A stretch of 50,976 nucleotides of DNA, counting the filler, from Jimgerdemannia flammicorona (taxonomy: Eukaryota), in NCBI GenBank assembly GCA_003990765.1. It is 2 parts of 2 records of this genome, joined end to end, with 100 filler letters (N's around TTAATTAATTAA, not from the genome) between each part and the next. Parts side by side here need not be neighbours in the genome. Positions count along the whole stretch, not along the records: positions 25,548 to 50,976 come from RBNJ01000833.1; 1 more part is not named here. The stretch is one strand, 5' to 3'. The position numbers and the translations under genes were made by a program. This document shows positions 16,223 through 42,600 of this stretch, one piece after another. A model generated the notes under the pieces. The model saw nothing but the letters and a program-made list of their open reading frames with translations. It was not told the DNA's origin and made no database searches. The first letter of the stretch is position 1. Every line of letters starts with the position of its first letter.

Positions 16223-16716
16223 ATATATATATATATATATATATATAGAATATATCTCATTTATTAAGGAAATTATAACATTGATAATTCAATATTTATG
16301 ATCTATATTTTGGAAAATGACAATATTATTTATTTAATCCAATAGCAGAATATTCTGTGAATCAATAATCAAGTTAATATAGTCATATAGCTCCAGCATT
16401 AGCCAATAGCATAATATTTATTATATAAATGATATACATTTATATCAATAGTTTTACTATTGGTGTCATGTAATATTAGCCAATAGCTGAATAATATTCT
16501 ATGTTGATATTTCCCTAGCATATATAGACTATCTAACTATTTCAGCAGCTTTGCATTAGGCACACTTTCCATAGTCCTATATTGCCTATCATCTTAGCTC
16601 ATGACGTTAAATGAACTGCCGTCCTATGCATCATGAGATTATATCTGAACTGCAGGCCCTTGGACAGTGGGCACTATATAAGTGCAGCTGAAATTAACTG
16701 AACTGTTGGGTATTTT

Positions 16717-17094: not shown

Positions 17095-17309
17095 TATCAA
17101 TATAGTCGGCGATGGGACTTCACCCGACTTTATTAAAGTCTGCCTCCGACTACCTGAATTTATTATAAGCCAGCTAAGCGATCTCCGCCAATCGTATGCC
17201 GAGCGAGAACCAAATAAAAAATGAAAACCTGAATGGCCGTCATCTAATCTCCCCCAGCTTGTAAAATACGCACAGAATTCACCTCTACAGATGCATCAAC
17301 AAAATAGCA

Positions 17310-18551
17310 TCATTCATTACACTGTGTAGTCAAGATTTCCTGTTGAATACGATAGAGATCGATTACGATAATGGGGGCAACAGCTGGTGGGGTGACCGCG
17401 ACATATCCGAATAAGTTGGGAACGCCCGCGACGATTGGTGGATCCCAGAATATCTCATTCGTTGGAATCTGGATTTGGAATCCAGGAACACCCACGGCAT
17501 TACACCCAGTGGGAATATGCGAATGCTTTGCCAGCGTGCCAAAGTCCCACTTGATGATTTGAAAAAATGCAAGTGAGCCTCCGGAATTCGATGGTATTTA
17601 ATTGATACTAAAATTGAGCTTTACCATGGTGAATCCGGGCGCCGGCGCTCCTTGCTGCCAGAGTCGCGCCTAATATTCAAAATGGTCTTTAGGATATTCT
17701 AGATATACAGCAAGAAAATATCCGTTCAAGACTTACCGTCATCGACCGATGATATTGACCCTGCGGATTTCTAACGATCCTCTTTTCATGAACTTTGATC
17801 CCCAATACAAAGCGTATGTATGGCTCCTGCAACCAATTCCGACATCTGGCCTCCCAGTCTTGAGTGGACTGATGTATGGCAACCTCGCAAACTATCCGTG
17901 CGTATGGGTAATTCTACAAATACCAATATTGGATATAACTTTCAAAACAAAGGTGATAATACAGAACGAAATTTTGAAGTACCTGGGAATTTCCAGGGGG
18001 AGGTCCGGGATATGGCATAATGGGGACCTGAACCTGAACGTTGCTTGGTGAAACAGCAACGTCTGGAGCGACAAGGAGTCCACCTCCTCCGGGTGCATTA
18101 TGATCTAAGGAAAGGATATGAGAATGGTTGAAATCATATACATGTCAAGTGGTCAAACAGATTTCAGGGATTTCACTTACAAGGCTGCCCCCAAACGCGA
18201 ATGGGAGGATTCCAAAGAACGCCGCCGTTGGCGACTCTGAACACAGCTTGTAGAGAAGAAATGACAGCTTCATGCTCGGAATCAGCCATATCAACGATGT
18301 ATACGTCACCGTCGGCGTTTAGCTTGAACTTGTATCCGGGCGCCTCACGAAGAACAACGAAAGTATTGTACCGTTCCACTGAAACGTTCGTACCGATTCG
18401 TAGGGGCAACCTGTAATCACATCCACAAAACACTGGACAGTTAGAGCAAAGCAAACTTCTTGATGGGCAGGATGCACGCAGGCTTAATGATGCACGCCTA
18501 CCTGTCCACGGTTACCGGTTCTTTGGGGAGGCGAAGAGAGGTTTTGTGCAT
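17310..18551 (-). CDS. Intact six-exon gene, 287 aa, Uma2-like / putative restriction-endonuclease-fold (PD-(D/E)XK) protein
   Basis: Exons 18551-18502, 18410-18181, 18104-17983, 17913-17737, 17669-17625, 17549-17310. All introns are GT..AG, 65-91 bp. The exons splice into one 864-nt frame: MHKTSL...GDVYIVDMADSEHE...VAPDVAVSP...YARIVCEVAIHQS...FVLGIKV...WDFGT...IVIDLYRIQQEILTTQCNE*. The family call rests on the H-E / PD / EVA..QS motif pattern. Confidence 0.85.
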
Positions 18552-18599
18552 TGCAGTGAAATGCAAGACAATGCTGGTGGCAAAAAAACAACCTGTGAA

Positions 18600-18671
18600 G
18601 TTTTTCTACCTTGACAGTTTTTCATTTTTGTGACAGTTTTTCTACCGTGACAGTTTTTAATTTTTGTGACA
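18600..18671. repeat. Tandem duplication of a ~36-bp unit containing repeated TGACA(GTTTTT) motifs
   Basis: GTTTTTCTACC(T/G)TGACAGTTTTT(C/A)ATTTTTGTGACA occurs twice, ~50 bp upstream of the nuclease ATG. Confidence 0.75.
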
Positions 18672-18819
18672 TTTTGGGCCTTGGGTAGCTTGAAGAGAAA
18701 TCATTAAGTCAACCATTGGTACCAATATAGGTGTTGGGAACTGACAGGCACAGTTGATTGAATATGGAAATTTGAGTTTGCCTTTTTTTTTTTTTTTTTT
18801 TTTCACTCTATATTCTTCA

Positions 18820-19885
18820 AAGATCTGAATACCAACTCCTTCTGGAGGACCTTGAGCAAGTCCTAGTTCTTTAGGAACTTGTAGATTCTTCTAGCAAGAA
18901 TAAGATTGAAGGTGAGAGTGAGAAATCCAACTTTGATAGCATCAACTACTCTACTGATAATGATGATAACATACTCTTGATAACCTATATTCAAGTCTAG
19001 CTCCAGAACTATCTGAAGTTATGAGATCACATAGCCTAGGCCTTGAATCATCTGGACCGACTCTTTTATGAACTTGACAATAGACAGTTCAAGCAGAAAG
19101 TCTGTATAACTAGATAGTACTTTCAGAATCTCCTCATACTTATTAAAAATCACTCTATTTTTCAAAACAAAAATCAGCAGCATTCTGTCAATTATCAACT
19201 TCTAGTAATATTGAAGAGATTCAGATAGTTTGAAAATAAAGTAATAGTCAGAGTAATTGTATAGTTTTTTTTGGCTTATTAAGTAATATTCTGCATTATA
19301 GTTTCTTTAAGTTTCTATCTATATTCAAGATATAAGAATCAGAAGTAAACTCTTTTTAGTATTTTTATATATATTTTTATTATTATTATTATTATTTTGA
19401 AAGAGCTATAGAGCTGTATACTGACTGATATATTGTTACTATTCTGTTATTAGAGAAATAGGCTGTTTCTCAGCTGATAGAGAAGAAATAATGAGAAATT
19501 AATTACCAGATATTAGTGAATAGTAGTTTTCTATTCTGCTTAAGTTTTATAGATAGAACTCTCTTTATTCTAAATAACAAACCTTTCTTGAATAAAGAGA
19601 ACTACTATAGCTAGAAGAAATAGTATGATATTATCAGATTGATTATATATATGTGATAATAATAAGAGAATCTGATATATATATGTATATACTGATTGGA
19701 CTGGCTGTATTTATGATACTTATATTTGAGAACAATATACTGTTATATTAGCTGGAAAAATTCTTCTCTAGTGATAAATATCTTCTGATCAACTCAGGCA
19801 ATACTCTGGATCTCCAAATCATCTCAGTTTTTAAAATGCCTCCATATCATAGTTTAATAATAGAGGAGGCTCAGTTCACAATACC
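18820..19885 (+). pseudogene. PIF/Harbinger (DDE_Tnp_4-like) transposase remnant, cut at its 3' end by a LINE insertion
   Basis: Translates to ELDNRQFKQKVCITR*YFQNLLILIKNHSIF...QLLVILKRF, CLSFIDRTLF (CLGFIDGT), NYYS*KK*Y, CDNNKRI, WTGCIYD, YLLINSGN (YLLADSGY), FKMPP...EEAQF. Confidence 0.85.
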
Positions 19886-19893
19886 ACAAACAC

Positions 19894-22800
19894 CTCTGGT
19901 AATATTTGGGTTATACAAACTTCTATCAATACTCTCAATATCATTTTTAGAGAAAAGATACTAGTAATAAAGTAACTGATAAGTATTCTGAGATATATGC
20001 TGGGCAGGGTGGCTCTAGTATATTCAACTAGCAGCATGTGGAGAGGAGTTATGACTTATGAGAAAGCATAAGAGGTCTGCTGGCTGGAGGATGTGGAAGG
20101 AGAGGAGGCAGTACTGGGGGATAGAGAACTGAGAGGATGAGCTTTGCTAATAAGGTAAAGAGAGGTCATCTGATGACTAGACTGGAGGGCTGTCTAAGGA
20201 AGAGCAAGGAGATAGTAAGGAATGTTGAGTCTGGGGGAGCAGTCTAGGGTAGTGAAGGCAGTAGGGCTGGGGGAGTAGTGGCTAGAGAGAACAGAACTAC
20301 TGATGGCAAGAGAACTATTAATCTGGAAAAAAATCTAGATATGATAGTTGATGGCAGAACTGGATAGAGAGTGGGCATGAGGCCCAGAGATCTGACAGAT
20401 AGTGTAACAGGCCTGGTAGTGGTACTATTACTCAAGAAATTAAGGTTAGAATTCACTATCACACTGTGTTTCTGGAGCTTAACAGTGACTGTGAGAATGA
20501 TTCTGGGGCTTCTGGTCCAGAAGGTAAAGGGAGCTGCCTTGATGAAGTTTTTGAAGAAGCTGAAAGGGGTGGAGGTTGGATTTATAGAGGAAAATGTGCT
20601 ATTGGAGATGATGGAGAAGGGGGTGGTAGTGAGGGGAGTAGCAATTTCTATGGTCAGGTACTTATATTGAGACCCTGAGTGGTATAGTTGACAGTAATGG
20701 ATATTTCTATAGTATTGAAGGAGGTGGCCAGGGGGCTGATTGTGGAGGCCATCAAGGAGTATAAGAATATCTGAATGTTGAGTTTTGGGTCTGGGAAGAC
20801 ATAGAGTTCAGGATAGGAGATGTAGACATCAGGGTACAGCTGGTAGGCAAGGAGAATATAGGGAAGATGTGTGACTGACCAGCAGTACTCAAATGGAGAC
20901 TAGTGGAATGTAAAGTCTCCAGAGTGAAAGGGATGTAGAAAGAAGAAGTGGACTTACTAGAGGCATTAGAGGATCTGACTGAGGTTGTTGAAAGAAGGAG
21001 ACTGATCTGGAAGAAGTTTAAGACTAAGATAATAGTGGAGATCATAAATAGTAAAAAGGTGAGACTAGATCAGGTAGCCTGGAAGAGGGTACAGGGGAGA
21101 CATATTCAGAAGGACCTGTTGGCAAAGTTGGGAGGGGAGAAAGCCAGGGGGTCCACTGCTGAAGATACTGGATTGAGAGTGAGTATCTGGGCTAGATAGA
21201 AGAGAGCAGCTCTAGGGGAGACCCAGAGAGAGAGAGGTAGTACTGGGTTGAGTATTATCATGGAGAATGTGGAGAAGGTTGAGGGGGAGCACCTTCAGTA
21301 TAGTATACTAGGTGGAGCTGCTGGCTAGGATAAATTGCAGGATGTGTAAAAGGAGGATTGAGATAAATTGACAGGAAGGAATACAGAGGGTAGGCAGGTG
21401 AAGAGGGGGAAGAGAGTGGTCCAGAGAGTTGAGAAGACAGTGGATGAGGAAAAATAGCTATGGAAAACACTTGAGAATGTAGCAGCTAAGGAGCTGGGGG
21501 GAGAGGACTTTTAGGTACTGAGCAAAAGATACTAGACTGAAATATCTATATGATAAGAAGGTGCTGAGGAAACTCTGAGATGAGATAATGACAGCCTTGC
21601 TGGAAGTGGAGGCTTATCAAGTAAATAATGACAGAGAGGCAGCACTTCTGGTAATTGTAAATGATTGGGCTGCTTATATGTGGGGTCTGAGAAAAGGGCT
21701 GGCAAAGTAGCAGATAGTATATGAGGAATATCAGATAGAGATGGAAGCTGTGGATAGTGCAGATTGTCAGGAGATCTTGATAGCACTAGAAGTGCAGCAG
21801 AGAGAGACAGATGAGCTTAAGACAGAGAGGAACCTGAATCTTACTGATGAAGGGATGAGCATGGAATTATAGAGTAAGTACTTCTCTTTAAACATTATTT
21901 AATATAAATAGTATAACAAGAATCTTCTCTTTGAATATCAATGATCTGAGGAGTGTGACAAGATATCAAAATATCTTTAATTAGTTGAAGGAGCTGGAGG
22001 CAGATATTTTCTTACTGCAGGATATACTAGACTAGATGAGAGAATGGAGAGGTGTGGCAGTATGGCAGGGTCTGGTGGGCATTCTGGTTAGGAAGGGGGT
22101 GGGGGACATTGGGGATATTGGACATTAGGGGGGCAGATTGGTATGAGGAGTGTGGAGGATACTGGGCTGGAGCCCCTTGACTGTTGGGTCATGCTACTGC
22201 TCAGCAGAAAGGAGGGAATAGGTGGATTGGATAAGGGGTCTGTAAGAGGTGAGTGTTTTGACAGCTGCAGAAATTGACTATCTGAGGGGTGACTTTAATT
22301 TGATATGCAATAGAAGGATGAACAGAACTAATAGTAGGAAGGGATAGTGAGCAGGAGTGGAGAGATAGAAGATTGAGAGAAGATTGAGAGAATGAGCTCT
22401 TTGGTAGATATAGGGAGACTTGGGTGAAGAGATCACTAGATCTATACTCACTGGATAGTAGAGTTGGGATCAAGGATTAACTGAGTATTGATGGCTAAAT
22501 GCTGGAGTGCAGATATCTGGAGTGAGATTGAGATAGTCTGGTATCCTTAGTCTGATTACTGGAGATTGCTGGATAGAGAGAGGTTTGGGGGTAGGGGAGA
22601 GAGACTCAGATATTAGCATCTGAATACCTCACTACTGGGGGACCCTACCTTATGAGAAGAATGGGTAGTAGAGGTTAGTACTAGGATTATTGGCTAGAGG
22701 GCACAGGGGTTGGAGATTAGAGATCATTGGTAGTGGTTGAAATCTAATGCTCAGTAATACTGGGGTGAGGCTGGAAGAGCTCAGCAGAGGAGTCATATTA

Positions 22801-25547: not shown

Positions 25548-25935
25548 CTGAAGTCCACCAACCCCAGACCTCCATCTGCCTTCACTATCACTATAATTTC
25601 CCCCTAGGGCCCCTCTCTCCCATATCTTCATACTTGAAAACCACCTTATTACCTACTACTTCAACTCTTCCCTCATTCTACCTACAAATTCTCTCCACTA
25701 ATCAGTACTACCAACCACTCTGCAGACTCCATCCTAGCCATCAGTCTGTCAAAACATTCTCTATCAACCCTTCTCACCTCAATAGCTACTCCCCCAAATC
25801 CAAATATTTTTCTTCCTCAAAAACAAATAACTGGTAATCTGCCAGCCCTACCCATATAGCCAATACCTAACCCAAAGTGAGCCACTCCTTCCCAACCCTC
25901 TCTACCAATCTATCCTTAAGATCCTCTTCCAACTG
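25548..25935 (-). mobile_element. 3'-region fragment of the same LINE family, inserted after the gypsy gag
   Basis: EDLKDRLVERVGKEWLTLG matches the ORF2 C-terminal region of the copies at ~28250 and ~34720. Confidence 0.8.
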
Positions 25936-27018
25936 GTTTACAGTTGCTCTTCTTATCATAGAGCTTGGACCAGGTTCTAGCATCTTCAGTGATAGGGTAG
26001 AATTCAGGCTCTTTGTAGTATTCTTCATTATCAGTATCACTGATCTCCTCAATGACTACTATATTGGTTTATTCTCTAGTTCTAGTAGTATTACTTAGTT
26101 GAACTTTATATCTTATTTCAGTCATACAACTCTTTGTATAGTGGCCTTCTTCTCTACATCTGAAGCATGTGATATTGCATTCTTCTATAGCAGCTAAAAA
26201 TCTCTATACTGGTCTCCTGTTGGTACTTTGGACTTCTCTAACAACATCACCAAGGTGTGCAGTAATCTCAGTAAACTGCTTGGTGAGTTCCTCTACTGGG
26301 TCAGCTTTGGCTGCCTTGAGAGTAGGTGGGGATAATTGTCTGTTTACAACTGTGGTGAGTATGATACTAGTTGGCTTTGATGGCTCCATCTTGATGCCAG
26401 TTATTTTCTCCATTAAGTAGTTGGTGGGGTGTCTGGCAGTCCAATATCTCTATATAAAGACTACTTTCTGATCAAGGGTCAGTGTAGCTAGAGTAGACTG
26501 GATTGCTAGGGCAATTTTAGAGTAAACTCTTTTAAGGAAGGTTGAATCTGCTATTTATTCCTTGAGGTAGTCATCATAGCCAGCTATGGCAGATTCAGGT
26601 ATAGAATGAGTTAGGATCTTCACTAAGTCTCTGGTAGATAGTATTGAGTTGATTCTTGAGAGCTTGCTTGATTTCTTTGATATAGTATGTAGTTCTGAGG
26701 AAGGTCTTCATGTTGGCAAGTCTGGCTGCACTAGTATCAGCAATAGTGGCTGTATTGAACTTATCTCTGGCAGGTTCTCTGAGACTGACTGGTAGAAGAG
26801 CCAATTGTATATCTATGTTGAGGGCTCATATAGCAGCAAATTGTTCAAAGTCTTCAATGAAGGTCAGGATTGACTCTTCAGTAGTATATTCATAGAATGT
26901 GGAGGGATACATTTCTATCTTATCTTGAATTCTTGCAGGGGTGACTCCTATAGTCAGGGTAGTTATTGTAATAGTTGTTTATTTTTCAGCTTGAAAGTAA
27001 GGAATTCATTTTGAATCA
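25936..27018 (-). pseudogene. Ty3/gypsy gag remnant (family 2) with zinc knuckle
   Basis: FIEDFEQFAA...LPVSLREPARDKF...YQRLSEDPNSFY (retrotransposon gag-like). CFRCREEGHYTKSC knuckle at ~26125-26168. Lies downstream of a PBS and an LTR end. Confidence 0.85.
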
Positions 27019-27035
27019 CCAGCCAATGGACACCA
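27019..27035 (-). other. Primer-binding site TGGTGTCCATTGGCTGG
   Basis: Starts with TGG 3 nt after the LTR end (...CATGACA at 27039, minus strand). The cognate tRNA was not identified. Confidence 0.7.
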
Positions 27036-27526
27036 AGTTGTCATGTAGTGGTCACTGAGTTTTTCAAATATATTAAATTCTCTTTATGATATATCTCTTA
27101 GACTAACTCAATTTGTTATAAGCAAGTTCTTATTAAAGTGCCTTCCCAAGGTCTTATAGTCCTCAAACTTCTTATCTTTAAACTATCTTGTTATCTTTTT
27201 AGATTGCTTGCAAGGAATTATATATAAGTAAACTTGACTGACTTTATTTTGAAGAAAATAAGAGGGGTATTTATACAAAATATAATTCAATAGTTGTTAA
27301 GATATAAAGCTAAATATAAATTCTAATAACCAAATAAAATACTGGAATACAGAAAACTACTAAGTTCCAGTGTTAGCACTTGTATAAGTTCAGGATACTA
27401 GTATAATTTGGTAATATAGAAAAAGGGTGCTGGAATAATTCTGAGTTATACAAGATCAGAATGCTAGTGAAGGAATAGCTGTTATATGGAAAAAGAATAC
27501 TGGAAGTACTCAGTGTAACTAAGATC

Positions 27527-30500
27527 TTAGAGCAGAAAGTTCAGGACCATGGGGGCTTCATCTTTGTCCCTGTCCTCAAAGAAGATGAGGTCTGTGAACA
27601 TTTCATTATATATTTTATATATAGCATGCAAGATGACATCATCACCAATAATGTCATCACATTCAGCAGGGGCTCTCCAATCTATAACATTCTTTTCCAC
27701 AAAATAAGAAACAAATGTAGGGTCTTGGGGAGGTCTAACCTGAATGCTGGGGTCTTGAAATACTAAGATCAATTCTTGTAGGAACTGATCTGGGTTGTTC
27801 TGGAGGATGAGATACTGGAACTCTTCTACCTCATCACTATTAAGAGTGATAGTGGACTGGACCTCTGTAGCTACCATGGCTTTTTTTTTTTTTTTTTTTA
27901 TAGTCACTTAGACTCTAACATTTATTACCAGTCTATTAATAAATTTACAGTATTTCCTCCCACTACCCAATCCCCATAGGGGAGTCTCTCCCCACTCCCT
28001 CCCAAACAACAACCACCTTCCCACCCACTACTCCAACCTTTCCCCCACTCTGCCTACAGATTTTCTCCACCAATCAACACCTCTGACCACCCTGCAACCT
28101 CCAACCAAGCCACCAGCCTGTCAAGGTGTCTTCCATAAGGCTATGCCACTGCATCACCTGGACCCCCAAACCCAGCCTCCTCCTATCCTCAAAAACAAAT
28201 AGCTAGTGGCTGGCCAGCCCCACTCATATAGTTAGAGTCCAGCCTAATGTGAGTCATTCCTTACCCACCCCCCCCACTAGTCTATCCCTCAAATCCTCCC
28301 ACTGCCCCCACATACCACCTCCCCTGCATTCTACCTCCAAATGATCCCCAACAGTCTACTAAAAGTCACTAAGTACCTCATACTCTCCTAGCCAATATTC
28401 AGACATCTGTACATATTCTCCTTCTATTCCTACATTATAGTATTCCTTACAGTCAAAGCAACCTCCTTCAATAAGGTGATCTGAGCAGTAGTTGAGCATT
28501 ATATTCCTCCTCAGCATGTGTCACCAAGTCACCCAGTACTTCAGTGGCATCCATCTCCTCACCTCAGCACTCTAGGCTCAAATGTCATGCTAGGCCCAAT
28601 CTTTGCCAATTTCAACACCTTGCCAAAAACTGGGCCACAGATCCTGGCCTGGTTCCCTCTGGCAATCTATCTCATCACTAATGTTGAACTTGAGTAAGGG
28701 AATGCCACCCAGCAGTACCTAGTCCCATCTCCACATTACCAGGTCTCAATCCACCTCCCCTTTATTTCCTTGTCAATGAATTCCAATGTGGTGCACCCCC
28801 TCTGCCGCCCCCCACCAGAAGCCTTTATATCACAATTGTTCAGTATTCCTAAGTCCAACTAAAGATAGGAGATCTCTAGTCAAGCCTTGTGGTGAGGATC
28901 TCATCTCCCAGACCTTCTGCAGTAGGGGAACCCAATCTCCCCCTCTCAACTCTACGGCTCTCTTCAGCCACCAAGCTCTCAAGCAGTGTAGCCTCTTTGG
29001 AAAGTCAACCAGCCCAAGTCCACCACTTGCCACTGGTAAGGATAAGACCTCCCAGCTAATCTGACTCCATCTTCTAGCCCAGATCCATCCCTTGGCCAGC
29101 TTCAACAATCTCTTCACTACTTAGGCTGAGAAGTCCAGATGATAAGCCAGATACCACAACTTTGGCAGCCAGTAGCTGTTCAAAATCGAGACACATCCTG
29201 CCAGGGACAATTGATGGCCCCCCCAACTCTACAGGACCTCCCCCCAGATTCCAACCCATTGCTCCCACCAAAGCCTGGGTAGAACCAACCCATACACTGA
29301 TAGATAGATATCCAAGTACCATACTGCCTCACCAGTAGAGATGATCATTCCAATAACCTCCCCTCCCACCAGACTGTTGCCTAACACCATCATTTCACAC
29401 TTATGCCAATTAAGCTTTGTTCCAGAGTTCTCTTCATACCACTCCACTGTCTCCTTGAGCTTCTCAACATCAGCAATTGATCCCAGTCTGATCACTATGT
29501 CATCTGCAAAGGCCTCTACTTTCCACCCAATGCCAAAGATAGAAAGCTATACTATCTTATGCCTGATTCTATCCATTAAGGGTTCTAGTGAAAGGGCATA
29601 CAGAATGGGGGACAATGGGTCCCCCTGGGGCACCCCCCTACCTAGGGGAAATGCTACCCCTCTATGTCCATTACATATGAGCACAGCCCTACTCCCTTCT
29701 AGTAGACTGATTATAGCTGACCAGAACTGGCATGGAACCCCAGTTCTGTCCAATACTTTTGCTAGCCAGACTCACCTCACCTGGTCATAAGCCTTCTCTT
29801 GGTCCAAAAAAACCAGACACTCATCCAATCTACAAGCTCATACCCCTTCAATAACTCCATGTACCCAGGCTGTGCCATCTCTAATGAGCCAGCCTCCAAC
29901 AAAGCTCCTCTGCTCAATGCCCAAGACTTGCTGGGCCACCTTTTGTAACTTTCTGACCACTACCTTAGTAACCAACTTTCTGTCCATATCCAGTAGCATA
30001 ATTGGTCTCCAGTTCTTCCAGTTCTCCCACCTTCCTTTATTCTTGTAAAGCAACATCACCAACTCCAGATCCTGCTCTCCCAATCATTTCCCTGTCTAAA
30101 GAATAAAATCACACAGTACCATCATCTCACTCAGTACTCCTGGGATCCCAACCATCTTCTTCCAGAAGTCCCAGGGCAAACCATCCTTCCCAGGCACCAT
30201 ACTCAATGATGTTGTGGTAAGAACCTGGTGGATTTCCTCTTCTTATATGGGCAGCACTAAGTCTCTCACCCTATCTATTTGCGGGGGGTACCAATCCTCT
30301 AATGTGTGGCCAATGGCATCAGCATCCACCCCACTCTCCTTCTCACTCCACAGACCACTTCAATACTCTTTTAAAGATCCAAAAATGTCATGTACACCAT
30401 GCACCAGTATGCCATCAGAGTCAAGTACCCCCTCCCATCTCTGCTGCACTCTTCTTGCCTGAAGGGCTCTCATGAGATACTTTGAGAGTCTCTCTCCTTC

Positions 30501-33500
30501 TTCCAAACCCTGCCAGTGGAGCCATGCTACCAAGCTTTGTACTTTCACCTCTTCCTCCTCCCATAATATTTATTGTAGTTTGCTAATCTTCTTTTTCACC
30601 CTCATCAATCTCCAATTCTCCTCCCCTTCTAATGTCACCAATCTCACCCAATCCTCCAAGAGTCTAGACAGTCTACCAGAAGCCCATCTCACCCATCACC
30701 TCTACTGTTTCCCAGCCTCCTTGCCAGCCTCACTCCAGTAGGTCCTGGCCATCTCTTTCATCCATATTCACCGAATACCAACTGGGACACCTTCTCATCT
30801 CCAGCACTCCACCCTCACCTGAATGTCCACAGCCCACTCATCCTACCAGGTCTTATCATCTAATAAGGAGGAATTGAGGCACCAATGTCCAGGCCCATCC
30901 CCACTCCCCCCAAATTGCCCCTGTTCTAAAAGCCCCTAATGATCTAACCAAGGATACCATTCTACCTCCAGTGACTTCCAAACATCTAGGCCCCAGCAGC
31001 TGGCCATAAGAATACAATCAATTCTTGTCCCCAAGCCCTCTGCCCAATGCATATATATCTTTCTATCCCCCCAGCACTCCCTACCCACATCCACCAGAGC
31101 ACTCAGCCTTTCTACTTCCTCCCATACTGCCAGTCCTCCACTCTGACCCTCAGCTCCCCACCCTCTATCTGTTCTGTCCAACAGTATATCTCAGACCATA
31201 TTGAAGTTTCCACCCAGCATATCCACCCCAGTCTCTGCAAAGATCCCACTCTCCTGAAGGCCCTTCACTCAATCCACATGCTCACTCTGTACTGCAGAGC
31301 AGTAACAAGTGCCCACTATAACCAGCTCCCATCCTGAACATATCCACTCACCCCAGACCAATCTATCCCCCCAGCTCTGTATGTCCTTTATCTTCCCTCT
31401 GCCTTTCCATACCAGAATCCCAACCTTGCCTTTCCAAACCACCTCATCTCCCCATTCCCTTGTCCATTTCAGTCAATCCAACTCATCTTCACACCTGACA
31501 TTCTGCAAGAGGAAGAGATTGGCCTCCAATCTCTTCAGTCAAGTAAAAATGTTCTTGTATTGATAAGTACCCCATAACCCATTCATATTCAAAGAAAAAA
31601 TATTGGTTGTACTATTCATAATAAAGTATGGTATATTAATCCAGTCCATTCCTACTGCTCCATGTTTATCTCTTCCTGCACCATATCCAGATTATGTTCT
31701 GCAGTCACCACCTCCTCCTCAGTCTGCTGAGCCTCCAATCCTGCCAATAGCTCATTCATCTCCCCATCTGCCTTCTTCTCAAACTCCTCTTAGTACTCCA
31801 GGCAGGCCTCCTGCCAGAGCTGTAATCCATGTCACTTGGCCCAACAGTATTTGGCCCTCTCACCAGCAATCCCTGCTAGCTCTGCCTCCTGCTCCTTATT
31901 CACTTCATACCCTTCCTCCTCCAGATATACCACAAGGATCTCTACCTTCAATGCCAACTTCACACCATCCCTCTACAGGACCTGTACCCAATGCTCATCA
32001 CTCATTACTCTCAAGTCTACCTCCCCCAGCTCTTCAGCCACCAGATTATTCATCATTCTGCACATCCAAAGTAGATTTCCTACCTCCTTCCCTCCTGGGG
32101 TTGCCAGTCTCCCCCCGTCCAATATCATGGTATCAGCCCCAGTACTTGCAGCCTCATCCCACTCCTCTGGGACATCCACCAGTTCCTCCTCTCCAACTGC
32201 CTCCACCTGTCCCCCATTCACCACCTCTGGAACTCCAAATTGCACTTGCTGGGCCCCTTTCATAGGCACATCCTCCCTCACCCTGCTCTGGAAAGCCAGA
32301 CCTCTTCTGATAAGTATAGTAGGGGTAGGCAATCCCTCCTAGTCTTCTTCCCAGACCTCAAATGTACCATCAGCATATGGGTCACTGCCAGCTGCTTTCC
32401 TGTCCTCTCCTGATCCTTTCTCCACACTCCTACTATCTTTGCCAGCCCAGACACTCACTTTGGCACCCCCTGTTTCCACCATTCCACCTGCCTCCTTCTG
32501 TGGTTGACTTTCCATCTTGGCCAGTAGCTCCTTCTGATATTTATGTCTCTGAGCCTTTTCCCATTGCCCCTTGTCTACCCTGATCTACTTCTCATCTACT
32601 ATCTCTAAGTATGTTGACTCCTCAAAAGCCTTCTAAGCCTTTGCTCACCACTCCACCACTCCACTCAGTTCTTTGAGTACCTCCAGTAAGTCCTCTTTCT
32701 CCTTCTTACTCCCCTTTACCCTCATCACCTTACACAAGATCGCCCCCCAGATGATCTCTGAAGGCCAGTTCCTTGCCTTCTCAGTAGCTTCTCTCTCTGC
32801 CAGCCGAATCCTCACATCCACATCTCCCATCCTAAGTAAGGTTCCCTCCCAGACTCTGAACCCAATATCTACTATCTCTCCATACTCTGCCATGATCTCC
32901 TCAACTCTCCTTCTCATCTCCACCACTGTCACCATGGGCACTCCTTTTACCAGCAGTTGGACTACCCTGGGGTCTCATTTCAGGCAGCATGCTATTAGGA
33001 CACACACCTCTCCAACAATCAATCCAACCTTCAGCACTTTCTCCAAAGGCTCAGCCTCCTCAAAACCCACCTCCACTCTCTCCAATCTCTTCAGAAACTT
33101 AACAGATACTGCTCCAGCCACCTGCTTAGTAATAAGCCCCAGCACCATTTTTGCAGTCACTGTCAGGCCTCAGAAGCACAATGTCATCATGAATACTGAG
33201 ATCAATTTCTTAAGTAACGGAGCCACCACCAGGCCTGTTACACTATCTGCCAAATCTCCTCGCCTTCCAAGCCTCAATTGCTCAGCCACACCATCAGCAG
33301 TCACATCTGGATTTTTTTTCAGATTGGCAGTCTCATCACCATCAGCTATCATGTTCCCCCCAGCCACTACTCCCCCAGCTCCACTGCTCTCACCACCAAG
33401 GGCTACTCCCCCACGAACAGCTGTCTTCTCCATCTCCTTGCCTTTCCTCAGCCAACCCTCCAGCCCAGTTGCCTGCTGCCTCCCCTTTACTGTCTCCACA

Positions 33501-34302
33501 AAGCTTGCCCTCCCAGACCCCTGTCCTCTACTGCTGCCTTCTCTCCCTCCTCATCCTCCTGCCAACAACCCCCTCATATCTTCCCCTAGGCCAGGACCTC
33601 TCCCCACCTACTGCTAGTCAAATATGCTAGGGTCACCCTGCCCAGTATACAATCCAGATTACTTGCTGTTTGTCATTGCCTTGGTACCTTTCTCTAATAA
33701 ATGACTTGAAAGTATGTTGTAAAGTGTGCATATCATGAATAGTAGCTGGAAAAGGTGGCTACCATGGCTTATAGTTCATTGATATGATGGGCTGATAGAT
33801 TCCTGAAGTCTGAGACTCTAATATACTTCAAGTTAGGGATCAACCATGGTGTATGTCTAAAGATCTGATGAATCTTCTTGACTGTCCTTATTTCATATAT
33901 ATCCATGAGAGTGGTATCTTGTAGCTCTTGAGGACTGGCTTGAGGGAATTTCTAGTAGAGAAGGTTTCCTATTTCATATTTTTACCATATCTGGAGACAT
34001 TCAGTAGCAATGGTGATTCTTGTTTCCATCTTATGATAGTAGAGAATATAATAATAAGGGTCACCAGTACCCAGGTTGACACTAGAAGTCCTTATGGTGC
34101 AGGTCCTAATGGCTCTTTTGATGTCTTGGAATACCCTTTCCTGGACTGAGAGGCCTTGATAGTTCCTTGATCTTAAGGTTTGGTGAGCAGTAGGCATTTT
34201 GTTTGTAATAAGTCTTTGAGCTATTTTGGGATTAGTGGGTCTTGTTGAGTTGTTGCTACTGTGGTTCCTTGAACCTTCTTTTATATTCCTCAAGATGTCC
34301 AT
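27527..34302 (-). pseudogene. Accessory ORF of gypsy family 2 (~295 codons; pieces 34302-33769 and 27880-27527), function unknown
   Basis: Single frame across the LINE TSD: MDILRNIK...CLQIW*KYEIGNLLY*KFP...RTVKKIHQIFRHTPWLIPNLKYIRVSDFRNLSAHHINEL*AMVATEVQ...VLNFLL*. Only three internal stops, all TAA/TAG and compatible with CAA/CAG decay. Confidence 0.65.
27881..33754 (-). mobile_element. Full-length degenerate Tx1/L1-like LINE with poly(A) tail and 14-bp TSD
   Basis: Poly-T 27881-27899. TSD GTAGCTACCATGGC (27867-27880) / GTGGCTACCATGGC (33755-33768). ORF1 ~33600-31640 and ORF2 ~31620-28050 with RIDCIL, LDH, WKNWRPI, DQEKAYD, GVPQGDPLSP, AFADDI. Confidence 0.95.
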
Positions 34303-37300
34303 ATTGTGGTCCCAATAACTCACAGTTGGTTTTTTTTTTTTTTTTTTTTTTTTCTCTTAGACTTCTTCCTTTATTAATGCATCTGTCTATCTCATATATA
34401 TTACACTAAACCCACTCCTATCTGATTCCCCTAGAGGGCCCCCCCTCTCCTACTCCCTCTTAATTAAAGACTACTAGGCCATTAATCACTTTAATCTACC
34501 CACTACTCTATCTATAAATCTCTTCTACCAGATAGTAGTGATGCCTACCCTGAGGATCCCATCCAATCCACCACCCTGTCAGCAGATCTCCCATCAACCC
34601 CTCCCATCTCAATATCTTCTCCTACAAACCCAGCTGTTGGCCCTCTTCAAAAACAAAGAGCCAATGTCCAGCCAACCCTACTCATATAACTAAAACCCAT
34701 CCTACAGTGAACCATTCATTACCCACACCTCCCACCAACCTATTTCTCAAATCTTCCCAGTGACCTCTTTCCTCATCTGGTCTCTTCTCCACACCCAGTC
34801 TATCTTCTACCACTAACCAAAAGTCCCCCAGAACCTCACACTCTCTTAGCCAATATTTTTGTATCTGCACTATCTCTCCAACCTGTCCTACATTATAATA
34901 CTTCTCACATTCTAGTAATCCACCATCCACCAGATGTCTAGCACAGAAGTTCAACATGATATTCCTCTATAGTATCCACCACCATACTACCTAGAACTTG
35001 AGAGGAAGCCACCTTCATACTTCAGCACTCTATGCCCAGACTCCAGCCCAATTCCACTCCTTACCAATCCTCACTACTTGCCAACTCTCAGGCCAAAGAT
35101 CCTGACCAAGACTCTGCTGACACTCTACTTTATCAGTAATATCAAACTCAATAAATAGAGTACCCCCCAAAAGCAGTCTGTCCTATCTCCATATAGCTAG
35201 TCTCCATAGCTTCTCCCCTTTATTGCTGTATCAGTACAATTCTATATAGTGTACTCCATCTGCTACCCCTCACCAGAAGCCTTTATACCTTAGCCACTGG
35301 TTTCCACCCAGGCCCACCAGGGATAACAGATCCCCTGAGGATCCTCTTGGAGAGAATCTCATCTCCCACACCTTCTACATCAGCAGCACCCATCCCCCTC
35401 CCCTCAGTTCTACCACTCACTTCAACTACCAAGCTCTCAGACAGTGCAGTCTCTTAGAAAAATCTACCAGTTCTAGCCCCCCTCAAGCTGCTGACATTGA
35501 AAGAGTATCCCAGCTGATCTGGGACTGCCTCTTAGCCCAAATCTAATCCCTAGGCAGTTTCATCAGTCTCTTTACCACCTAAGCAGAAAAGTCCAAGTAA
35601 TAGGCCAGATACCACAACTTAGGGAACCAGTAGACATTCAGAATCAAAACCCAGCCTACCAGAGAGATGGGTTGTCCTCCTCAGCCTCAAAGAGTCTTTC
35701 TTCAGATGGCCACCCTCCTCTCCCACCACACATATGGTAAGACATAACCATACACTGAAAGGAAGATGCCCAGATATCTCACCACCTCTCCTGTCAGGAC
35801 AATTGTTCTAATGACATCCCCTCCCACTAACCCATTTCCCAATACTATTGTCTCATACTTATGCCAGTTGAGTTTTACTCTAGAGTATGTCTCATACCAT
35901 TGAACTATATCCTAAAGAGCCTCAATATCTACCACTGATCCCAGTCCAACCATCATGTCATCTGCAAAGGCCCCCACCTTCCACACTATACCATAAATAG
36001 AGAGCCCTGCCACCTTCTGCTGAATCCTATCCATCAAAGGTTCTAGAGAAAGGACATATAGAATAGAAGACATGAGAAACTCCTCTCCCCAAGAAAAATG
36101 CCAGACCCTAGTGATCATTACACATCAGTGCCACCCTACTGCCCTCCAACAAATTCAATATAGAAACTTGAAATAGCTGGGGAACTCCTATTCTATCCAG
36201 CACCTTGTCCAACCATGCCTACCAGACACAGTCATAGACCTTCTCCTGGTCCAAAAAGACCAGTCTCCCATCCAATCTACTAGCCTGTGCTCTCTCAATA
36301 ATGCTATAAACCCAGGCCATCCCATCTCTGATAAGTCTACCTTCAACAAAACCCTGCTGCTCCTCACCCAATACCTGTTGGGCAACCTTCTGTAGCCTTG
36401 CTATAATCACCTTAATAACCATCTTCCTGTCTATATTCAGAAGCACGATCAGTCTCCAGTTCTTCCAATTCTCCCTCCTTCTCTTGTTCTTATATAACAA
36501 GGCCACCAGCTCTAAGTCCTGCCCTCCCACCCACTGGCCATTCAGAAGAACAGTGTCACAGAGGACTGCCATCTCACCTAACACTCCTGAGACTTCCACC
36601 ATCTTCTTCCAAAAGTCCCAAGGTAGTCTATCCTCTCCTGGTGCCATTCCAAGCTTAGTTGCTGTGCAAACTCTCTGGATTTCCTCCTCTTGGATCAGTA
36701 GGATCAAATCCCCCAGACCCTCAACTTGTGGTGGCTTCCAATCCTCCAGAGCATCTCTAATTGCCTCTGCATTAGCACCCCCTTCCTCCTCACTCTACAG
36801 TCCCCTCCACCACTCCTTCAGCAATTCCAAGATCTGTTGTGTACCATGAACCATTACCCCCTCTGCATCAAGAACTCTATCTCATTGATGTTACACTATT
36901 CTAGCCTGGAGGAGTCTTAATAAATACCTAGTGAGCCTCTCCCCCTCCTCAAGCCTCTGCCACCTCAACCTAGCTGTCATTCTTCTTATCTGTATCTCCT
37001 TCTCCTCTCTTAACACCTGTTGTAACTCCACTACTTCAAGCTTAGCCCACACTAACTGCCAACCATCTACCTCTCTAGAATTCATCAAATCAGTCCATTC
37101 CATCAGCAATCTAACCAATCTATTAAAAGCACACCTCACTCTCTTTCTTCTCTGCCTCCCAGCATCTCTACCAGCTCCTCTCTAGTAAACCTTCACATCT
37201 TTTTTCAACTTCATCCACCAGACACCCATGGGCAAACCCTCATATATCCAACTAGCAATCTTCCCCTGAATGACCTCAGCCCAAGAGTTCCACAACTCCT

Positions 37301-39575
37301 TCTCAGTCAGCAGAGAGGAGTTAAGGCACTAATGTCTGAGTCCATCTCCACTCTCTCTAAACTGCTCCTGCTCTAACAGTCCCCAGTAATCAGACCATAG
37401 GCACCACTCCACCTCCAGAGTCCTCCAAACATCCATGTCCCAGCATTCAGCTGTCAGTATCCAGTCAATCCTTGTACCAAGTTCATTTATCCAGTATGTA
37501 TAAATCCTCTTTTCTTCCTACTGCAACCTGCCCATATCTCTTAGAGAGCTAAGATTCTCCACTTCTTCCCATGTATCCAAGCCTCTACTCCTTCTACCAG
37601 CACTCCTTCCTCCATCAGTTCTATCTAATTGAAGATCCTACACCATATTGAAGTCACTCTCCAGAATATCCACCCCTTTCTCTAAGAATATACCCTCCTC
37701 TAAGAGACCCTTAATCTATACAATCTGCTTGCCCCTAGCCACAGGACAGTAGCAAGAGCCAACTCTCACTGGCTCCCACCCTGGTTGATGCCAATTCCCC
37801 CAAACCAGATAGTCTCCCTAGCTCCTGATTCCACTCAGATCTCCTTTACCACTCCTCATCAAGATCATCACTTTGCCCATCTAAGCTGTAGCTCCTCCCC
37901 ATTCCCTAGTCCACTCTACTTGATCTATATCATCCTTGCAATGCACATCCTGCAGCAGAAAGAGATCAGCCTCCAATCTCTTAAGCTAACTGAAAATGTT
38001 TTTATGTCACCCAGAGCCCTATAACCCATTCACATTCCAAGAAAAAATGTTGGTTATACTGTTCATTGGAAATAATGTTTTAGAAGTACTGCTCATCCTT
38101 TACTGATCCACATTCATTCTCTTCCTTGCCATGTCCAAGTTATGTTCAGCAGCCACTTCCTCCTCTATAGCCATCTTCACCTCCAATCCAACCAGAAGTT
38201 CAGCCATCTCTCCATTCTCCTTCTCCTCAAACCTCTCCCAATACTCCAGGCAGACCTCCTGCCAGAGCTGCAATCCATGATACTCTGCCTAACAGTATGT
38301 AGCCCACTCACCAGTAACAATTGCCAGCTCAGCCTCTCTCTTCTTATCTACCTCATATCCCTCCTTCTCTAGAAAAATTGCAAGTATCTCAGCCTTTAGT
38401 GCCTCCACCACTCTATCAATATATAGAATTCTAGCCCAGTACTCCTCACTCATCACCCTCAGATCTACTTCTCCCAACTCTTCAGCTGCAAAGTTATTCA
38501 TCATCTGGCTCATCTACAGTAAGTTTCCCACCTCCTTCCTATCTGGAGACACCAGCCTCCCTGCACTCAGTATTGTGGTATCTGCTCCTGTACTCACAGT
38601 CTCATCCCACTTCTCCTCTATTACATCCACCAGCTCATCCTCACCAATAGCCACCACCTGGCCCCCTTTTGCTATGTCTGGAACTCTAAAGTGAACTCTC
38701 TGGGCACTATACATCAGTACATCCTCTGCTGCCTGGCCCCTCAGAGTAGGACCCCATCTGACAAGAGGGGGAGTATCTTCCAAATTCTGTTCCAGACTTC
38801 AAACATACCATCTGCATACAGGTCATTGCATGGTGGCTTCCCAGCCCCATCTTGACCCTCCTCAACATCCCCACCCCTCTTACTGGCCCAGATACTTGCA
38901 TCAGCACCTCCAGACTCCTCAACACTACTTGCATTCCTCTTTGCCCTTCCTTCTAGGCTTGCCAATAACTCCTGCTGCCTCTTATACTTCTGAGCCCTCT
39001 CTCATAGCTTCTTGTCTGTGCAGATATATTTTCCATCCACAATCTCCAAATGAGTTGACTTCTCATATTTCTTCCAGACATTTGCTCTCTGCTTGACTGC
39101 ACCACTCAACTCTTCCAAAGCCTCTAATAGGTCCTCCTCCTCTTCCTCACTCCCCTTCACCCTTGACATCTTACAGACAAAGGCCCCCTATATCAGAACT
39201 AAAGGCCAGTTACTCAGCTTCCTAGTGGCCTCTCTCTCAGCTAGTCTAATCCTGACATTAACATCCCCTGTCCTAAAGGTAGTCCCCTCCCATATCTGGA
39301 ATCCTATATCAACCACATTGCTATACTCCACTATCACCTCCTCAATCTTCCTCCTAGTCTCTATCTTTATCACTATAAGTACCCCCTTGACCAGTAGCTG
39401 AGCCACTCTAGAGTCTTACCTCAGACAGTATACCATAGAGACCACTACTTCTCCAACAATGACACCCACCTTCAATGCTTTCTCCAGCAGGCCTGCCTTC
39501 TTAAAGCCTACCTCAACTCCTTCCAGACCCTTCAGGAACTTCACTGAGGCAGCCCCAGCCATCTATTTAGAGATA

Positions 39576-41171
39576 CAGTGACAGTCAAAACTATAACAAT
39601 ATTTAGTTATTTTTTATATATAATTATATTATAGCTTCAATATAAATCCAATAAAATCCAAATTTTTATCATTAATAATATAGTATCTTAGCTTTTGAAT
39701 AGTATATTATTTATTTTATTTGGATAAATATAGACATTAATATTACTATTTTAAGTTATATTACCATTGTTATAGTTTTGACCCTCTTAGCCATCCAAAC
39801 CTCTTATTTATTTTTATTTAATATTTAATATATCTACCTTTAGCTTTATATACTGCTGAAATGCACCTGGGCATACTTTCAATTAATTTGATACAAATGT
39901 CTTTAGAAATGTCATTCCATTCATACTGTATATACTCCCATAATTCCAGCATTCCTTCAGATAGTTTATCATATATATTTAATTGTTTTTTAAATTTGTA
40001 CCATAAATGTTTGATGAGATTGAAGTCTGGCAATTGTGCTGGCCAGTCTAACATATAGATAGAGTTGTTTTTGAACCATTCATATGCTATTTTGGATATT
40101 TGGAATCATTATCTTGTTGGAAGGTGATCTTTTTTTGATTAAGTTTATAATACTTGATCATTTGAAGTAATTCATCACTAAGAATACTAGTATATAATTT
40201 GGCATTTATTCAGCTCTCAATTTGGCATATATATCAGACACCTTTGTATGTCATACATCCTCAAAGCATTAATGATCTACTACTGAATTTTAGAGTTCCA
40301 GTTACCTGGTTCAGTTGGAGCTCCCCACTACTATCTGATTTACACCATATTTATTTGCATCCATTGGAGCCCAAATGGTTAATCTTCATTTCATCAAAAA
40401 ACACAATGGTTTTCCAGTCAGCAACTGTCCAATACTTGTATTTTATAGCAAATTTGTAGCATGTCTTTATGTGATAAGATAGCAAAAGTGATTTCTTTTG
40501 CTTTATATATACTTTGAGGCCAGCCTTTCAGAGTGTTCATTTTACCATACTAAGGCTTGCCTTTTTGCCACTTTCTTGAAGGGCTTTTATAACTCTGGTG
40601 GCATTATCTGCTTTGCCAGTTGTAACTTGGCAGGTGATCTATACTTCATCTCAGGCTGAAAACATAGCTGGATGACCACCTTTTGATGAAAGAATATTAT
40701 TGCAATATGCCATTTTTACACAGTTTACTGTTATTGCACTCATATTGATTTCTTTGGCAATCTTGTATATAGATAAACCAGATTGTAGTAAGTGGATGAT
40801 ACAGTTACAAATGTCAACAGAAAGCTTTTTCATTGCTTGAAAATGATGGCAAAATACTGTAGAGTGATAAAGAATATCTGAAATAATACTGTAGTAAAAG
40901 TGGATAATTATAGCCCAACTCAATAGCATGTAGTGAACCCAAACAGGTTTGGGTGGCCAAGGGGGTCAAAACTATAACAATGGTAATATAACTTAAAATG
41001 GTAATATTAATGTCTATATTTATCCAAATAAAATAAAAAATATACCATTCAAAAGCTGAGATACTATATTATTAATAATAAAAATTTAGATTTTATTGGA
41101 TTTATATTGAAGCTATAATATAATTATATATAAAAAATAACTAAACATTATTATAGTTTTGGCTATCACTG
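39576..41171 (-). mobile_element. Tc1-family DNA transposon with 227-bp TIRs and TA TSD
   Basis: TA-CAGTG...CACTG-TA termini. TIRs 39576-39802 and 40945-41171. Confidence 0.95.
39818..40833 (-). pseudogene. Tc1 DD34E-type transposase pseudogene
   Basis: MKKLS...HTH...GGHP; WKTIVFFDEMKIN; L*GCMT; FQQDND; WPAQLPDFNLIKHLW (catalytic E read as K); SMPRCISAVYKAKGRYIKY. Several stops and a small frameshift ~40095. Spacing is 34 if the lost bases are restored. Confidence 0.92.
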
Positions 41172-42600
41172 TAAGCTCCAGAACCATCTTTGCCATTACT
41201 GCTAAGCCTTAGAAGCACAAGGTTACCATAAACTCTAAGATTGACTTCCTGAGTAATGGTGTCACCACTAGCCCCATCACACCATCTGCCAGGTCCCCCA
41301 TCCTCTTTGAGCCCATCTGTCCAGCCCTACTATCAACTATTACATCTGGATTTTTTTTTCAGATTCCCAGTCATACCATTATCAGCAGTCTCTCCTCTAC
41401 TTCTAGCTGCTGTTTTACTAGTCTTCCTATCTATTAGCTGAGGTCCAGCACCTCTCACATTGCCTTCCCTCTGCTTTCTCTTCCCTTTTGCCTGTTTATC
41501 ATGAGCACCAGCAGGCCATTCTCCAGTCTTTAGCATATCTGCAAAGCTCCCCCCCCTCTACCCTCTTGTCCCACTACCACTTTCAGAACTGTCCTGCCTA
41601 CTCAGACCACCAAAAGACCCCATCTCTAGTCTGATATATTATCAGTTGAAGGCTCCAGATCCACCTAACCTAGTATATATATTGGCTTACTTGTTGATTA
41701 CCATAACCTTAGTATCTTTCTCTAATAAATAATTCAAAAGTATGTTTTGAAGTTTATATTATGTGAATAATAGAGGAGAAAGATATGACTCACAGTTAGT
41801 CATCATTGCTCATCTTGTAGCCTGAATGTGTCATGCCATATAATCTTCTTGTGCTCTAATCTAGTGGCTTACAAGAAAAGACTGTTTCTTATACTGATGT
41901 CATCATTCTGAGATCACTGTTACAATATAAATCTCTCTTAAATCAGCATAACTATATATGTAAATATGATTATACTTATTAACTTTGATAAAAAGTATAT
42001 CTACTAAATTACTATAGTGGACTTTCTAATTTAAATAGATATAAACTGAACATATATACTTTATATAATTATTATGATGTAAATAAAATAGTTGTATTTC
42101 TTTGGATAATAGAGATTATATTAGTTCAAATGAAATAAAGTTATTAAAATTAAAGTTATTAAGTAAAACTTGCTATCAGCTTAATGGGTTTTATAGAAAT
42201 CTAATATCAAGATAATTTGTATCTCATTTGACATATATTTAATATATCTTTATTATATCTACAAAGCTTTATCTCTATATAAAAGATATAGAAATATAAA
42301 TAAATAAATATACTATAATATAATAATAATAATATATATTTGACTGATATTAAAGAAATAAATAAAAGTATTTATATATTATCTAGCTCTAATTACATCT
42401 TTTGTTTGATAATATATATAAAGGACCTGAGACTTCTTTTGCTCGAACCATTCGGAGAGAGCTAAGTCACACAGACATCTTTCAGTGAAAGACAACACAT
42501 TTGCAAGTTTTTATTTCGAACATACTGGTGTACATCATGTGGTGGGAGTCTATCTATAAGGCACAACAAGTTTCAGAGAAAACTGTTGAGTTTTGGTAAT

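What the first reader, a model, noticed from the sequence alone, without database searches (positions are those of the whole stretch)
27039..41924. Hidden ~295-codon ORF inside a gypsy LTR, visible only after removing two nested LINEs
Seen: excising the TSD-flanked LINEs (27881-33754 and 34331-41784) rejoins a ~1.53-kb minus-strand unit TGTAACA...CATGACA, followed by PBS and gag. Within it, one frame runs 34302-33769 plus 27880-27527 with only three CAA/CAG-type stops, upstream of the TATA box. It has no gag/pol motifs and no obvious transmembrane env features. Established: ORFs in U3 are known from retroviruses (MMTV sag, HIV nef overlap), and extra ORFs occur in some gypsy lineages. Inference: this is an LTR-borne accessory gene of a fungal gypsy family, which would be duplicated in both LTRs and retained in solo LTRs. 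It could be a transactivator or anti-silencing factor; the function is speculative.
Basis: partly seen in the sequence, partly recalled or inferred. Interest (0 to 1): 0.75.

Follow-up and report, generated by a model that had tools for sequence, protein, structure and literature searches.

The report
Accessory gene inside fungal retrotransposon LTR
A jumping gene of a fungus carries, inside the terminal repeat that normally holds only control signals, a real protein-coding gene of an undescribed family with its own promoter, and it probably acts as a regulator of the element itself.

Summary
The three pieces (41924-41785, 34330-33755, 27880-27039, minus strand) are one ~1.5-kb gypsy LTR: they are contiguous in 29 of 29 other genomic copies, and full elements carry the unit at both ends. 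Across 88 natural copies only this frame lacks fixed stops (0 of 266 codon columns, against 5-16 in the other frames), and many younger copies are fully open. The conserved start is ATG 34197 (~260 codons, not 295), 88 bp below its own conserved TATAAAAG box. Homologs at 25-45% identity occur in two other gypsy families of this genome whose RTs are only ~40% identical: inside U3 in one, directly before the polypurine tract in a chromovirus. They show a coding-type codon-position signature. No Pfam, PDB or fold match was found. The layout (basic N-terminus, helical core, acidic tail, no membrane segment, family-specific tandem repeats before the main TATA) best fits a Tas-like transactivator or anti-silencing factor (about 0.6 together; inferred, not shown). 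The scan has already reported this family on other DNA of this genome.

The parts
41785..41924 (-). 5' end of the LTR (start of U3, TGTAACA)
   Evidence: matches LTR positions 1-126 of natural copies
34331..41784 (-). nested LINE 2 (poly-A, RT), with a Tc1/mariner-like insert at 39574-41173
34278..34285 (-). TATA box of the accessory gene (TATAAAAG), 88 bp above the ATG
   Evidence: exact in 78 of 88 copies; at -86 to -88 in every intact family-A frame listed
33769..34197 (-). accessory ORF, codons 1-143 (ATG 34197-34195; internal stops at 33984, 33954, 33771)
27881..33757 (-). nested LINE 1 (poly-A, RT) splitting the ORF; TSD 27870-27882 / 33758-33770
27527..27880 (-). accessory ORF, codons 144-260 and stop (end of core, acidic tail; decayed CRE-like palindrome at 27643-27632)
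27276..27526 (-). U3 enhancer stretch between the stop and the main TATA; younger copies hold a tandem ~31-bp repeat (several copies) here, the candidate response element
   Evidence: natural copies; decayed in the window copy
27243..27275 (-). main LTR TATA (27275-27268) and AATAAA (27248-27243)
   Evidence: TATAAATA in 77 of 88 copies
27039..27242 (-). R/U5 and 3' end of the LTR (CATGACA)
   Evidence: the R/U5 border is inferred
25925..27038 (-). PBS and decayed gag of the host element, cut off near 25925
   Evidence: gag of intact relatives has zf-CCHC

Best explanation
SHOWN: the LTR of gypsy family A (gag, protease, dUTPase, RT/RH, integrase) holds in U3 a complete second gene: its own TATA box, an A-rich start context, a 260-280-codon frame, and a poly-A signal further down the LTR. 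It is copied into both LTRs and survives in solo LTRs. The same protein family is carried by two other gypsy lineages, in U3 (family C) or directly before the polypurine tract (chromovirus family B). INFERRED: it is expressed from its own promoter independently of gag-pol and encodes a soluble nuclear regulator with a basic N-terminus, a helical core that recognises DNA and an acidic activating tail. It would bind the family-specific tandem repeats just upstream of the main LTR TATA box and switch on genomic transcription, as foamy-virus Tas does from its internal promoter. A gene lying just upstream of the polypurine tract becomes part of the LTR when plus-strand priming moves upstream of its promoter; the direction of that shift is not shown. 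The window copy itself is dead (two LINE insertions, three stops).
For: Frame: 0 of 266 near-fixed stop columns against 7, 8, 8, 16 and 5 in the other frames, 88 copies. 20 of 139 scored matches have no internal stop. Shared indels are multiples of 3 in 12 of 12 cases inside the ORF, against 0 of 5 upstream and 1 of 14 downstream. Codon-position identity is 0.75/0.84/0.51 (family B vs metagenome L127) and 0.53/0.62/0.41 (A vs B). All families start MP with a TATA box 72-88 bp upstream (family C has TATTTAAG). Regulator layout: net charge +6/+6/+4 in the first 40 residues and strongly negative tails; maximum 19-residue hydropathy 0.49-0.75. An F-x-D-L-I-x-F motif is kept in the acidic tails of A, B and L127 (likeness to activation motifs is recalled). 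Tandem repeats that differ by family lie between the stop and the main TATA. The nearest named ESM-Atlas clusters include DUF6192, DUF3102 and DUF1016/ParB-HTH at 0.90-0.93 (a lead only).
Against: No DNA-binding fold was found: models reach pLDDT 58.8 and 66.3, best VIA Z 4.0, no Foldseek hit at E<=0.001, no significant Pfam or PHROG match. Only 1 of the ten best named Atlas hits shares a family with the top one, which the tool reads as probably wrong. The most conserved residues (W71, Y74, H110, Q111, H115, E143, S152, S158, N172) are not basic and could form a catalytic or protein-binding surface. The family-A tail shows pN/pS near 1 on shared transversions and overlaps TGACGTCA palindromes, so it may be shaped partly as enhancer DNA. 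All 12 in-frame shared indels lie in this repeat-rich tail. Within-family pN/pS of the core (0.37-0.53, P 0.02-0.17) is weak alone, and some other frames gave similar values. Expression is not shown.
Confidence: 0.42

Rival explanations
1. Sequence-specific anti-silencing factor (VANC-like): it binds the tandem repeats in its own LTR and counters the host's methylation and C-to-T attack on repeats, rather than recruiting Pol II directly.
For: Repeats here are stripped of CpG (O/E 0-0.1), and LTR pairs differ almost only by transitions (e.g. 93 transitions vs 2 transversions), so silencing pressure is strong. Candidate target repeats are tandem and family-specific, as described for VANC targets (PMC5735166, abstract).
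Against: No VANC-like or chromatin-enzyme homology. Copies that carry the gene are mutated like other repeats. An acidic tail fits a direct activator at least as well.
Confidence: 0.2
2. Post-transcriptional accessory factor (RNA export, packaging or translation, Rev/Rem/CERV-like) that acts on the element's RNA.
For: Arg-rich N-terminus with helical core. Families B and C share a 250-bp non-coding segment at 80-83% identity just upstream of the gene although their RTs are ~40% identical, which could be an RNA target.
Against: Family A lacks that segment. No Rfam match. A separate strong promoter in every LTR is more typical of an early regulator.
Confidence: 0.15
3. Negative regulator, or small enzyme or host-interaction protein (copy-number control, competition between families, or effect on the host cell).
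For: Invariant His, Glu, Ser, Asn, Trp and Tyr residues across 25-45% identity. Bdelloid ORF3s shared between lineages are enzymes (PMC5408684, passages). Solo LTRs would provide many expression sites.
Against: No enzyme fold or family found. The acidic, low-confidence tail is long for a simple enzyme.
Confidence: 0.2
4. Not a gene: a chance open frame in U3 kept open by codon-poor repeats.
For: Weak within-family transversion test and a neutral-looking tail.
Against: Protein-level conservation across three RT lineages with third-position saturation, shared MP start and TATA spacing, and many intact copies.
Confidence: 0.02

Closest known systems
MMTV sag (LTR ORF) and the HIV-1 nef overlap
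   Same: Coding sequence inside U3; for MMTV the whole ORF is in U3 and extra promoters lie upstream of the U3-R promoter (PMC12789967, passages).
   Different: Sag is a type II membrane protein of an animal retrovirus. This protein has no membrane segment, no detected homology, and sits in a fungal env-less gypsy element.
Foamy-virus Tas/Bel1
   Same: 3' accessory gene with an internal promoter; nuclear activator with a C-terminal acidic domain that binds elements in the internal promoter and LTR (PMC517496, passages). The layout here is similar.
   Different: No sequence or fold match found. Here the whole cassette lies in U3 in two families. Binding and activation are untested.
Additional ORFs between pol and the 3' LTR of plant gypsy elements (env-like; antisense Grande gene23, Retand)
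   Same: Family-wide extra ORF at the 3' end; Grande gene23 has its own promoter and a nuclear product (PMC7264820, parts 1-2 of 3 read). Family B's position matches.
   Different: Those ORFs are internal and either membrane-type or antisense. This one is sense, soluble and wholly inside the LTR in families A and C.
Bdelloid ORF3s (GDSL, DEDDy) shared between retroelement lineages
   Same: One ORF type in unrelated LTR lineages, in dUTPase-bearing elements (PMC5408684, passages).
   Different: Those are recognisable enzymes from spliced messages. Here there is no family match, a TATA promoter of its own, and no splice joint was seen.
VANC anti-silencing proteins of VANDAL transposons
   Same: Element-encoded protein with family-specific tandem target repeats (PMC5735166, abstract); such repeats are present here.
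   Different: DNA transposons of plants; no homology found; binding untested.

Membership tests
Ty3/gypsy LTR retrotransposon (host element, family A) | Two direct LTRs with TG...CA ends, PBS and polypurine tract | tested here: met
Ty3/gypsy LTR retrotransposon (host element, family A) | gag then PR-RT-RH-INT order | tested here: met
   (zf-CCHC, aspartyl protease, dUTPase, RVT_1, RT_RNaseH, rve)
Chromovirus | Chromodomain at the integrase C-terminus | tested here: inconclusive
   Met for family B (PF00385, E 5e-13). For family A none was seen in the translation, but the piece scanned with Pfam stopped short of the integrase end.
U3-encoded accessory gene (sag-type architecture) | Whole ORF between the LTR 5' end and the main TATA, in both LTRs and solo LTRs | tested here: met
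   family C solo LTR L159
env / env-like ORF | Transmembrane segment or signal peptide | tested here: not met
   Maximum Kyte-Doolittle 19-residue mean 0.49-0.75 in families A, B and C
Tas/Bel1-type transactivator | Own internal promoter | tested here: inconclusive
   Conserved TATA at fixed spacing; transcription start not testable with contigs
Tas/Bel1-type transactivator | Sequence homology to Tas | tested here: inconclusive
   No Pfam, BFVD or PDB match; models are of low confidence
Tas/Bel1-type transactivator | Binds and activates its own LTR | not testable with these tools
   needs EMSA, DAP-seq or a reporter
DUF3102 / ParB-like HTH proteins | HTH fold or profile match | tested here: inconclusive
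   Atlas similarity 0.90-0.91 and one BFVD row at E 0.45; no Pfam match, PF11300 finds nothing in this genome, no HTH among the top VIA rows
GCR1_C DNA-binding domain | Profile match to PF12550 | tested here: inconclusive
   No match in G000, but the control also gave nothing; the likeness was recalled
VANC | Homology and demethylating effect on its own element | not testable with these tools
   No family match; the effect needs methylome data

The most novel reading that the evidence does not exclude
A lineage of fungal gypsy elements has evolved 'complex' genomes: a mobile, self-promoted regulatory gene of a new protein family, exchanged between chromoviral and non-chromoviral lineages and moved into the LTR at least once. 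Every solo LTR is then a free-standing expression cassette for a sequence-specific activator or anti-silencing factor whose target repeats evolve with it.
Probability: 0.45. Interest if true: 0.8.

Novelty: new variant of a known kind. Interest (0 to 1): 0.62.

Why it matters
LTRs of retrotransposons are treated as non-coding. The review read here places additional ORFs in the internal region, and whole genes in U3 were found described only for retroviruses (MMTV sag) in the searches run. A conserved gene with its own promoter inside the LTR means that thousands of solo LTRs (3,492 first-look DNA candidates for family A alone; not a copy number) are potential protein-coding units. It also gives a testable case of an element-encoded regulator in a genome that erases CpG from its repeats. 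The protein family has no known relative, so its structure or target would be new. The window copy is only one decayed example, and the scan has seen the family before.

Tried and rejected
1) Spliced start: a GTGAGT...CTAAT...AG intron-like stretch lies upstream of the ATG (donor exact in 56 of 88). No contig joint skips it and an X1 contig runs across the donor; distant homologs begin at the same MP, so it was dropped. 2) ORF beginning in the internal region and crossing the polypurine tract in family A: fixed stops in all three frames and frame-shifting shared indels upstream of the ATG. 3) Antisense ORF: 5-16 fixed stops per frame. 4) Expression: no RNA holder listed. Contigs of X1 and X2 (RNA only by guess) cover the LTR, X1 with little cover over gag-pol, but the runs were found with the LTR as query and contigs cannot rank genes, so this is not used as evidence. 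5) Family and fold searches gave nothing significant: Pfam, PHROGs, PDB sequences, Foldseek PDB and BFVD, VIA wide, phage records, IMG/VR, first Atlas search (31, best 0.79). 6) GCR1_C and DUF3102 ideas: not supported. 7) A shared CCAGC motif across families: enriched only in family A (3.45 per copy vs 0.3), not in B or C. 8) Transversion pN/pS alone is not decisive. 9) Literature searches listed no paper on this family or on a gene wholly inside a fungal gypsy LTR; only listings were seen for most hits, subscription journals are missing, and no supplements were read. PMC10787394 (variable 5' LTR halves in Podospora; passages) showed no LTR ORF.

Full report
1. Observation. The two inserts are LINEs: minus strand, poly-A, RVT_1 matches at E 1e-26 and 2e-10, with target-site duplications of 13 bp and about 15 bp with two mismatches. 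I did not rejoin the window pieces but compared each with natural copies. A search of the own genome (231 Mb, 35,354 contigs) with the middle piece scored 40 of 3,492 candidates and gave 30 loci, one being the window itself. In 29 of the other 29 the three pieces lie end to end, overlapping by about the TSD lengths; 24 cover the whole unit. Copies measure 1.49-1.64 kb, begin TGTAA/TATAA and end GACA/GATA-like, and are preceded either by a polypurine tract or by AT-rich flank. Elements L031-L033 and L095-L097 carry the unit at both ends. Their interior encodes gag, protease, dUTPase, RT/RH and integrase. The window copy is a 5' LTR; its gag breaks off near 25925. The host is a fungus (88 Zn2Cys6 matches over the cut-off); its lineage was not established.

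2. The frame is a gene. In 88 non-redundant natural copies (111 hits before removing duplicates) the frame has 0 of 266 codon columns with at least 85% stops, against 7, 8, 8, 16 and 5 in the other five frames, and 295 of its 363 stops fall at codons that are CAA/CAG/CGA/TGG/CGG in other copies. A protein search scored 139 copies, 20 with no stop inside the match (the best scorers are biased towards intact copies). Both LTRs of L095 are open. Among 30 copies of the 3' region, indels shared by two or more copies are multiples of three in 12 of 12 cases inside the ORF, 0 of 5 upstream and 1 of 14 downstream; all 12 lie in the repeat-rich tail. Shared transversions give pN/pS 0.37-0.53 for the core (P 0.018-0.17) and about 1 for the tail, with some wrong frames also low, so that test is weak alone. 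The decisive evidence is deep conservation. Metagenome proteins match at 35-45% and above, and codon-position identities are 0.95/0.93/0.82 between family-A subfamilies, 0.75/0.84/0.51 between family B and L127, and 0.53/0.62/0.41 between A and B.

3. True start and promoter. The ATG at 34197 occurs in 71 of 88 and aligns with the MP start of all distant homologs. A TATAAAAG box (34285-34278) is exact in 78 of 88 copies and lies 86-88 bp upstream in every intact family-A frame listed. Family B has TATAAATA at -72/-73 and L127 has TATAAAAG at -80; family C has TATTTAAG at about -70. The main LTR TATA (27275-27268) and AATAAA (27248) lie downstream, so the gene is in U3 and each LTR holds promoter, ORF and poly-A signal. 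The window copy has 260 codons. Transcription itself is not shown.

4. Three gypsy lineages carry the gene. Searching the genome with distant homologs gave family B (118 scored) and family C (123 scored), many without stops. RT/RH identities are 36-40% (A-B), 41-45% (A-C) and 37-41% (B-C). Family B is a chromovirus (Chromo E 5e-13) with ~800-bp LTRs; its gene lies outside the LTR, with the stop codon abutting the polypurine tract. L127 has the same ending. Family C carries the gene ~205 bp inside a ~2.4-kb LTR, seen after the polypurine tract in L162 and as a solo LTR with an ATAT duplication inside a family-A integrase in L159. A shift of plus-strand priming across the gene and its promoter would convert one layout into the other (inference; direction unknown). 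Whether the gene moved between lineages or is older than their split was not tested; the 250-bp segment shared by B and C shows that this 3' region is either exchanged or strongly constrained.

5. What the protein is. No family or fold match was found. Both AlphaFold models (pLDDT 58.8 and 66.3) give a helical region at about 18-150, a short alpha/beta part at 173-212 and an unstructured tail. The N-terminus is basic, the tail acidic, and there is no membrane segment, which excludes an env-like role. The tail keeps an F-x-D-L-I-x-F motif in A, B and L127. Between the stop and the main TATA each family has its own tandem repeats: a ~31-bp unit in A, TCAGC/CCAGC arrays in C, GAACGA arrays in B. 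The Atlas lists DUF6192, DUF3102 and DUF1016/ParB-HTH clusters among its nearest named hits (0.90-0.93), but profile and fold checks did not confirm this. I put a Tas-like activator at 0.42, a VANC-like anti-silencing factor at 0.2, an RNA-level factor at 0.15 and other roles at 0.2. That the gene is real I put at about 0.97.

6. Comparison with what is known. The architecture is that of MMTV sag, a whole ORF in U3 with extra upstream promoters (PMC12789967, passages). The likely logic is that of foamy-virus Tas (PMC517496, passages) or VANC (PMC5735166, abstract and outline). It is not shown to be a member of any of these. Additional ORFs of plant elements are described as internal, env-like or antisense (PMC7264820, parts 1-2 of 3). 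Bdelloid ORF3s shared between lineages are enzymes (PMC5408684, passages). Searches listed no description of this family; the library lacks most subscription papers and no supplements were read.

7. Earlier notes. The scan had reported this family on other DNA of the same genome (8 notes shown of 372 fitting). My three-family result and the regulator reading were reached before that look-up. The notes supplied the lead to the plant-aORF review and prompted the second fold attempt, which did not confirm a DNA-binding fold. They are not independent evidence.

8. Verdict. A real, conserved, self-promoted accessory gene of an undescribed family inside the U3 of a fungal gypsy LTR; the window copy is decayed. 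New variant of a known kind; interest 0.62.

Noticed in passing
L137:4219-4467, L131:4563-4816, L162:6325-6579: Gypsy families B and C share a ~250-bp non-coding segment at 80-83% DNA identity between the integrase stop and the accessory gene although their RTs are ~40% identical; its last ~50 bp also match metagenome L127. No Rfam match. Possible exchanged module or structured RNA element.
   Followed up: partly
window 39574-41173: Tc1/mariner-like element (232-bp inverted repeats, weak HTH_Tnp_Tc3_2 match at E 5e-4) nested in the upper LINE.
   Followed up: partly
L095:3450-5039, L096:3562-5601, L131, L162: Family A has a dUTPase between protease and RT (Pfam); tblastn shows the same region in families B and C.
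   Followed up: partly
L077:936-965; L137 3' LTR position ~81: TGACGTCA (CRE-like) palindromes lie inside the coding tail of the family-A gene and in the non-coding U3 of family B: probable overlap of enhancer and coding function.
   Followed up: partly
whole window; LTR pairs L031-L033, L095-L097: CpG is almost absent from repeats (O/E 0-0.1) but present at 16001-20000 (0.5-0.8). LTR pairs differ by 6-14%, nearly all C/T transitions in CpG, CpA and CpC contexts.
   Followed up: partly
L137:2485-6399: Non-autonomous family-B copy that has lost most of gag-pol but kept the integrase tail, the shared segment and the accessory gene, inserted in a family-A element.
   Followed up: no
window 16700-18510: CpG-rich stretch with an ankyrin-like frame (+, ~16700-17000) and a frame on the minus strand (~17700-18500) that resembles Uma2-type endonucleases; both labels are recalled and come from no call.
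   Followed up: no
window 1213-2384 and 6367-7267; 7424-7723 and 11878-12177: Two further long direct-repeat pairs, probably LTRs of other nested elements.
   Followed up: no
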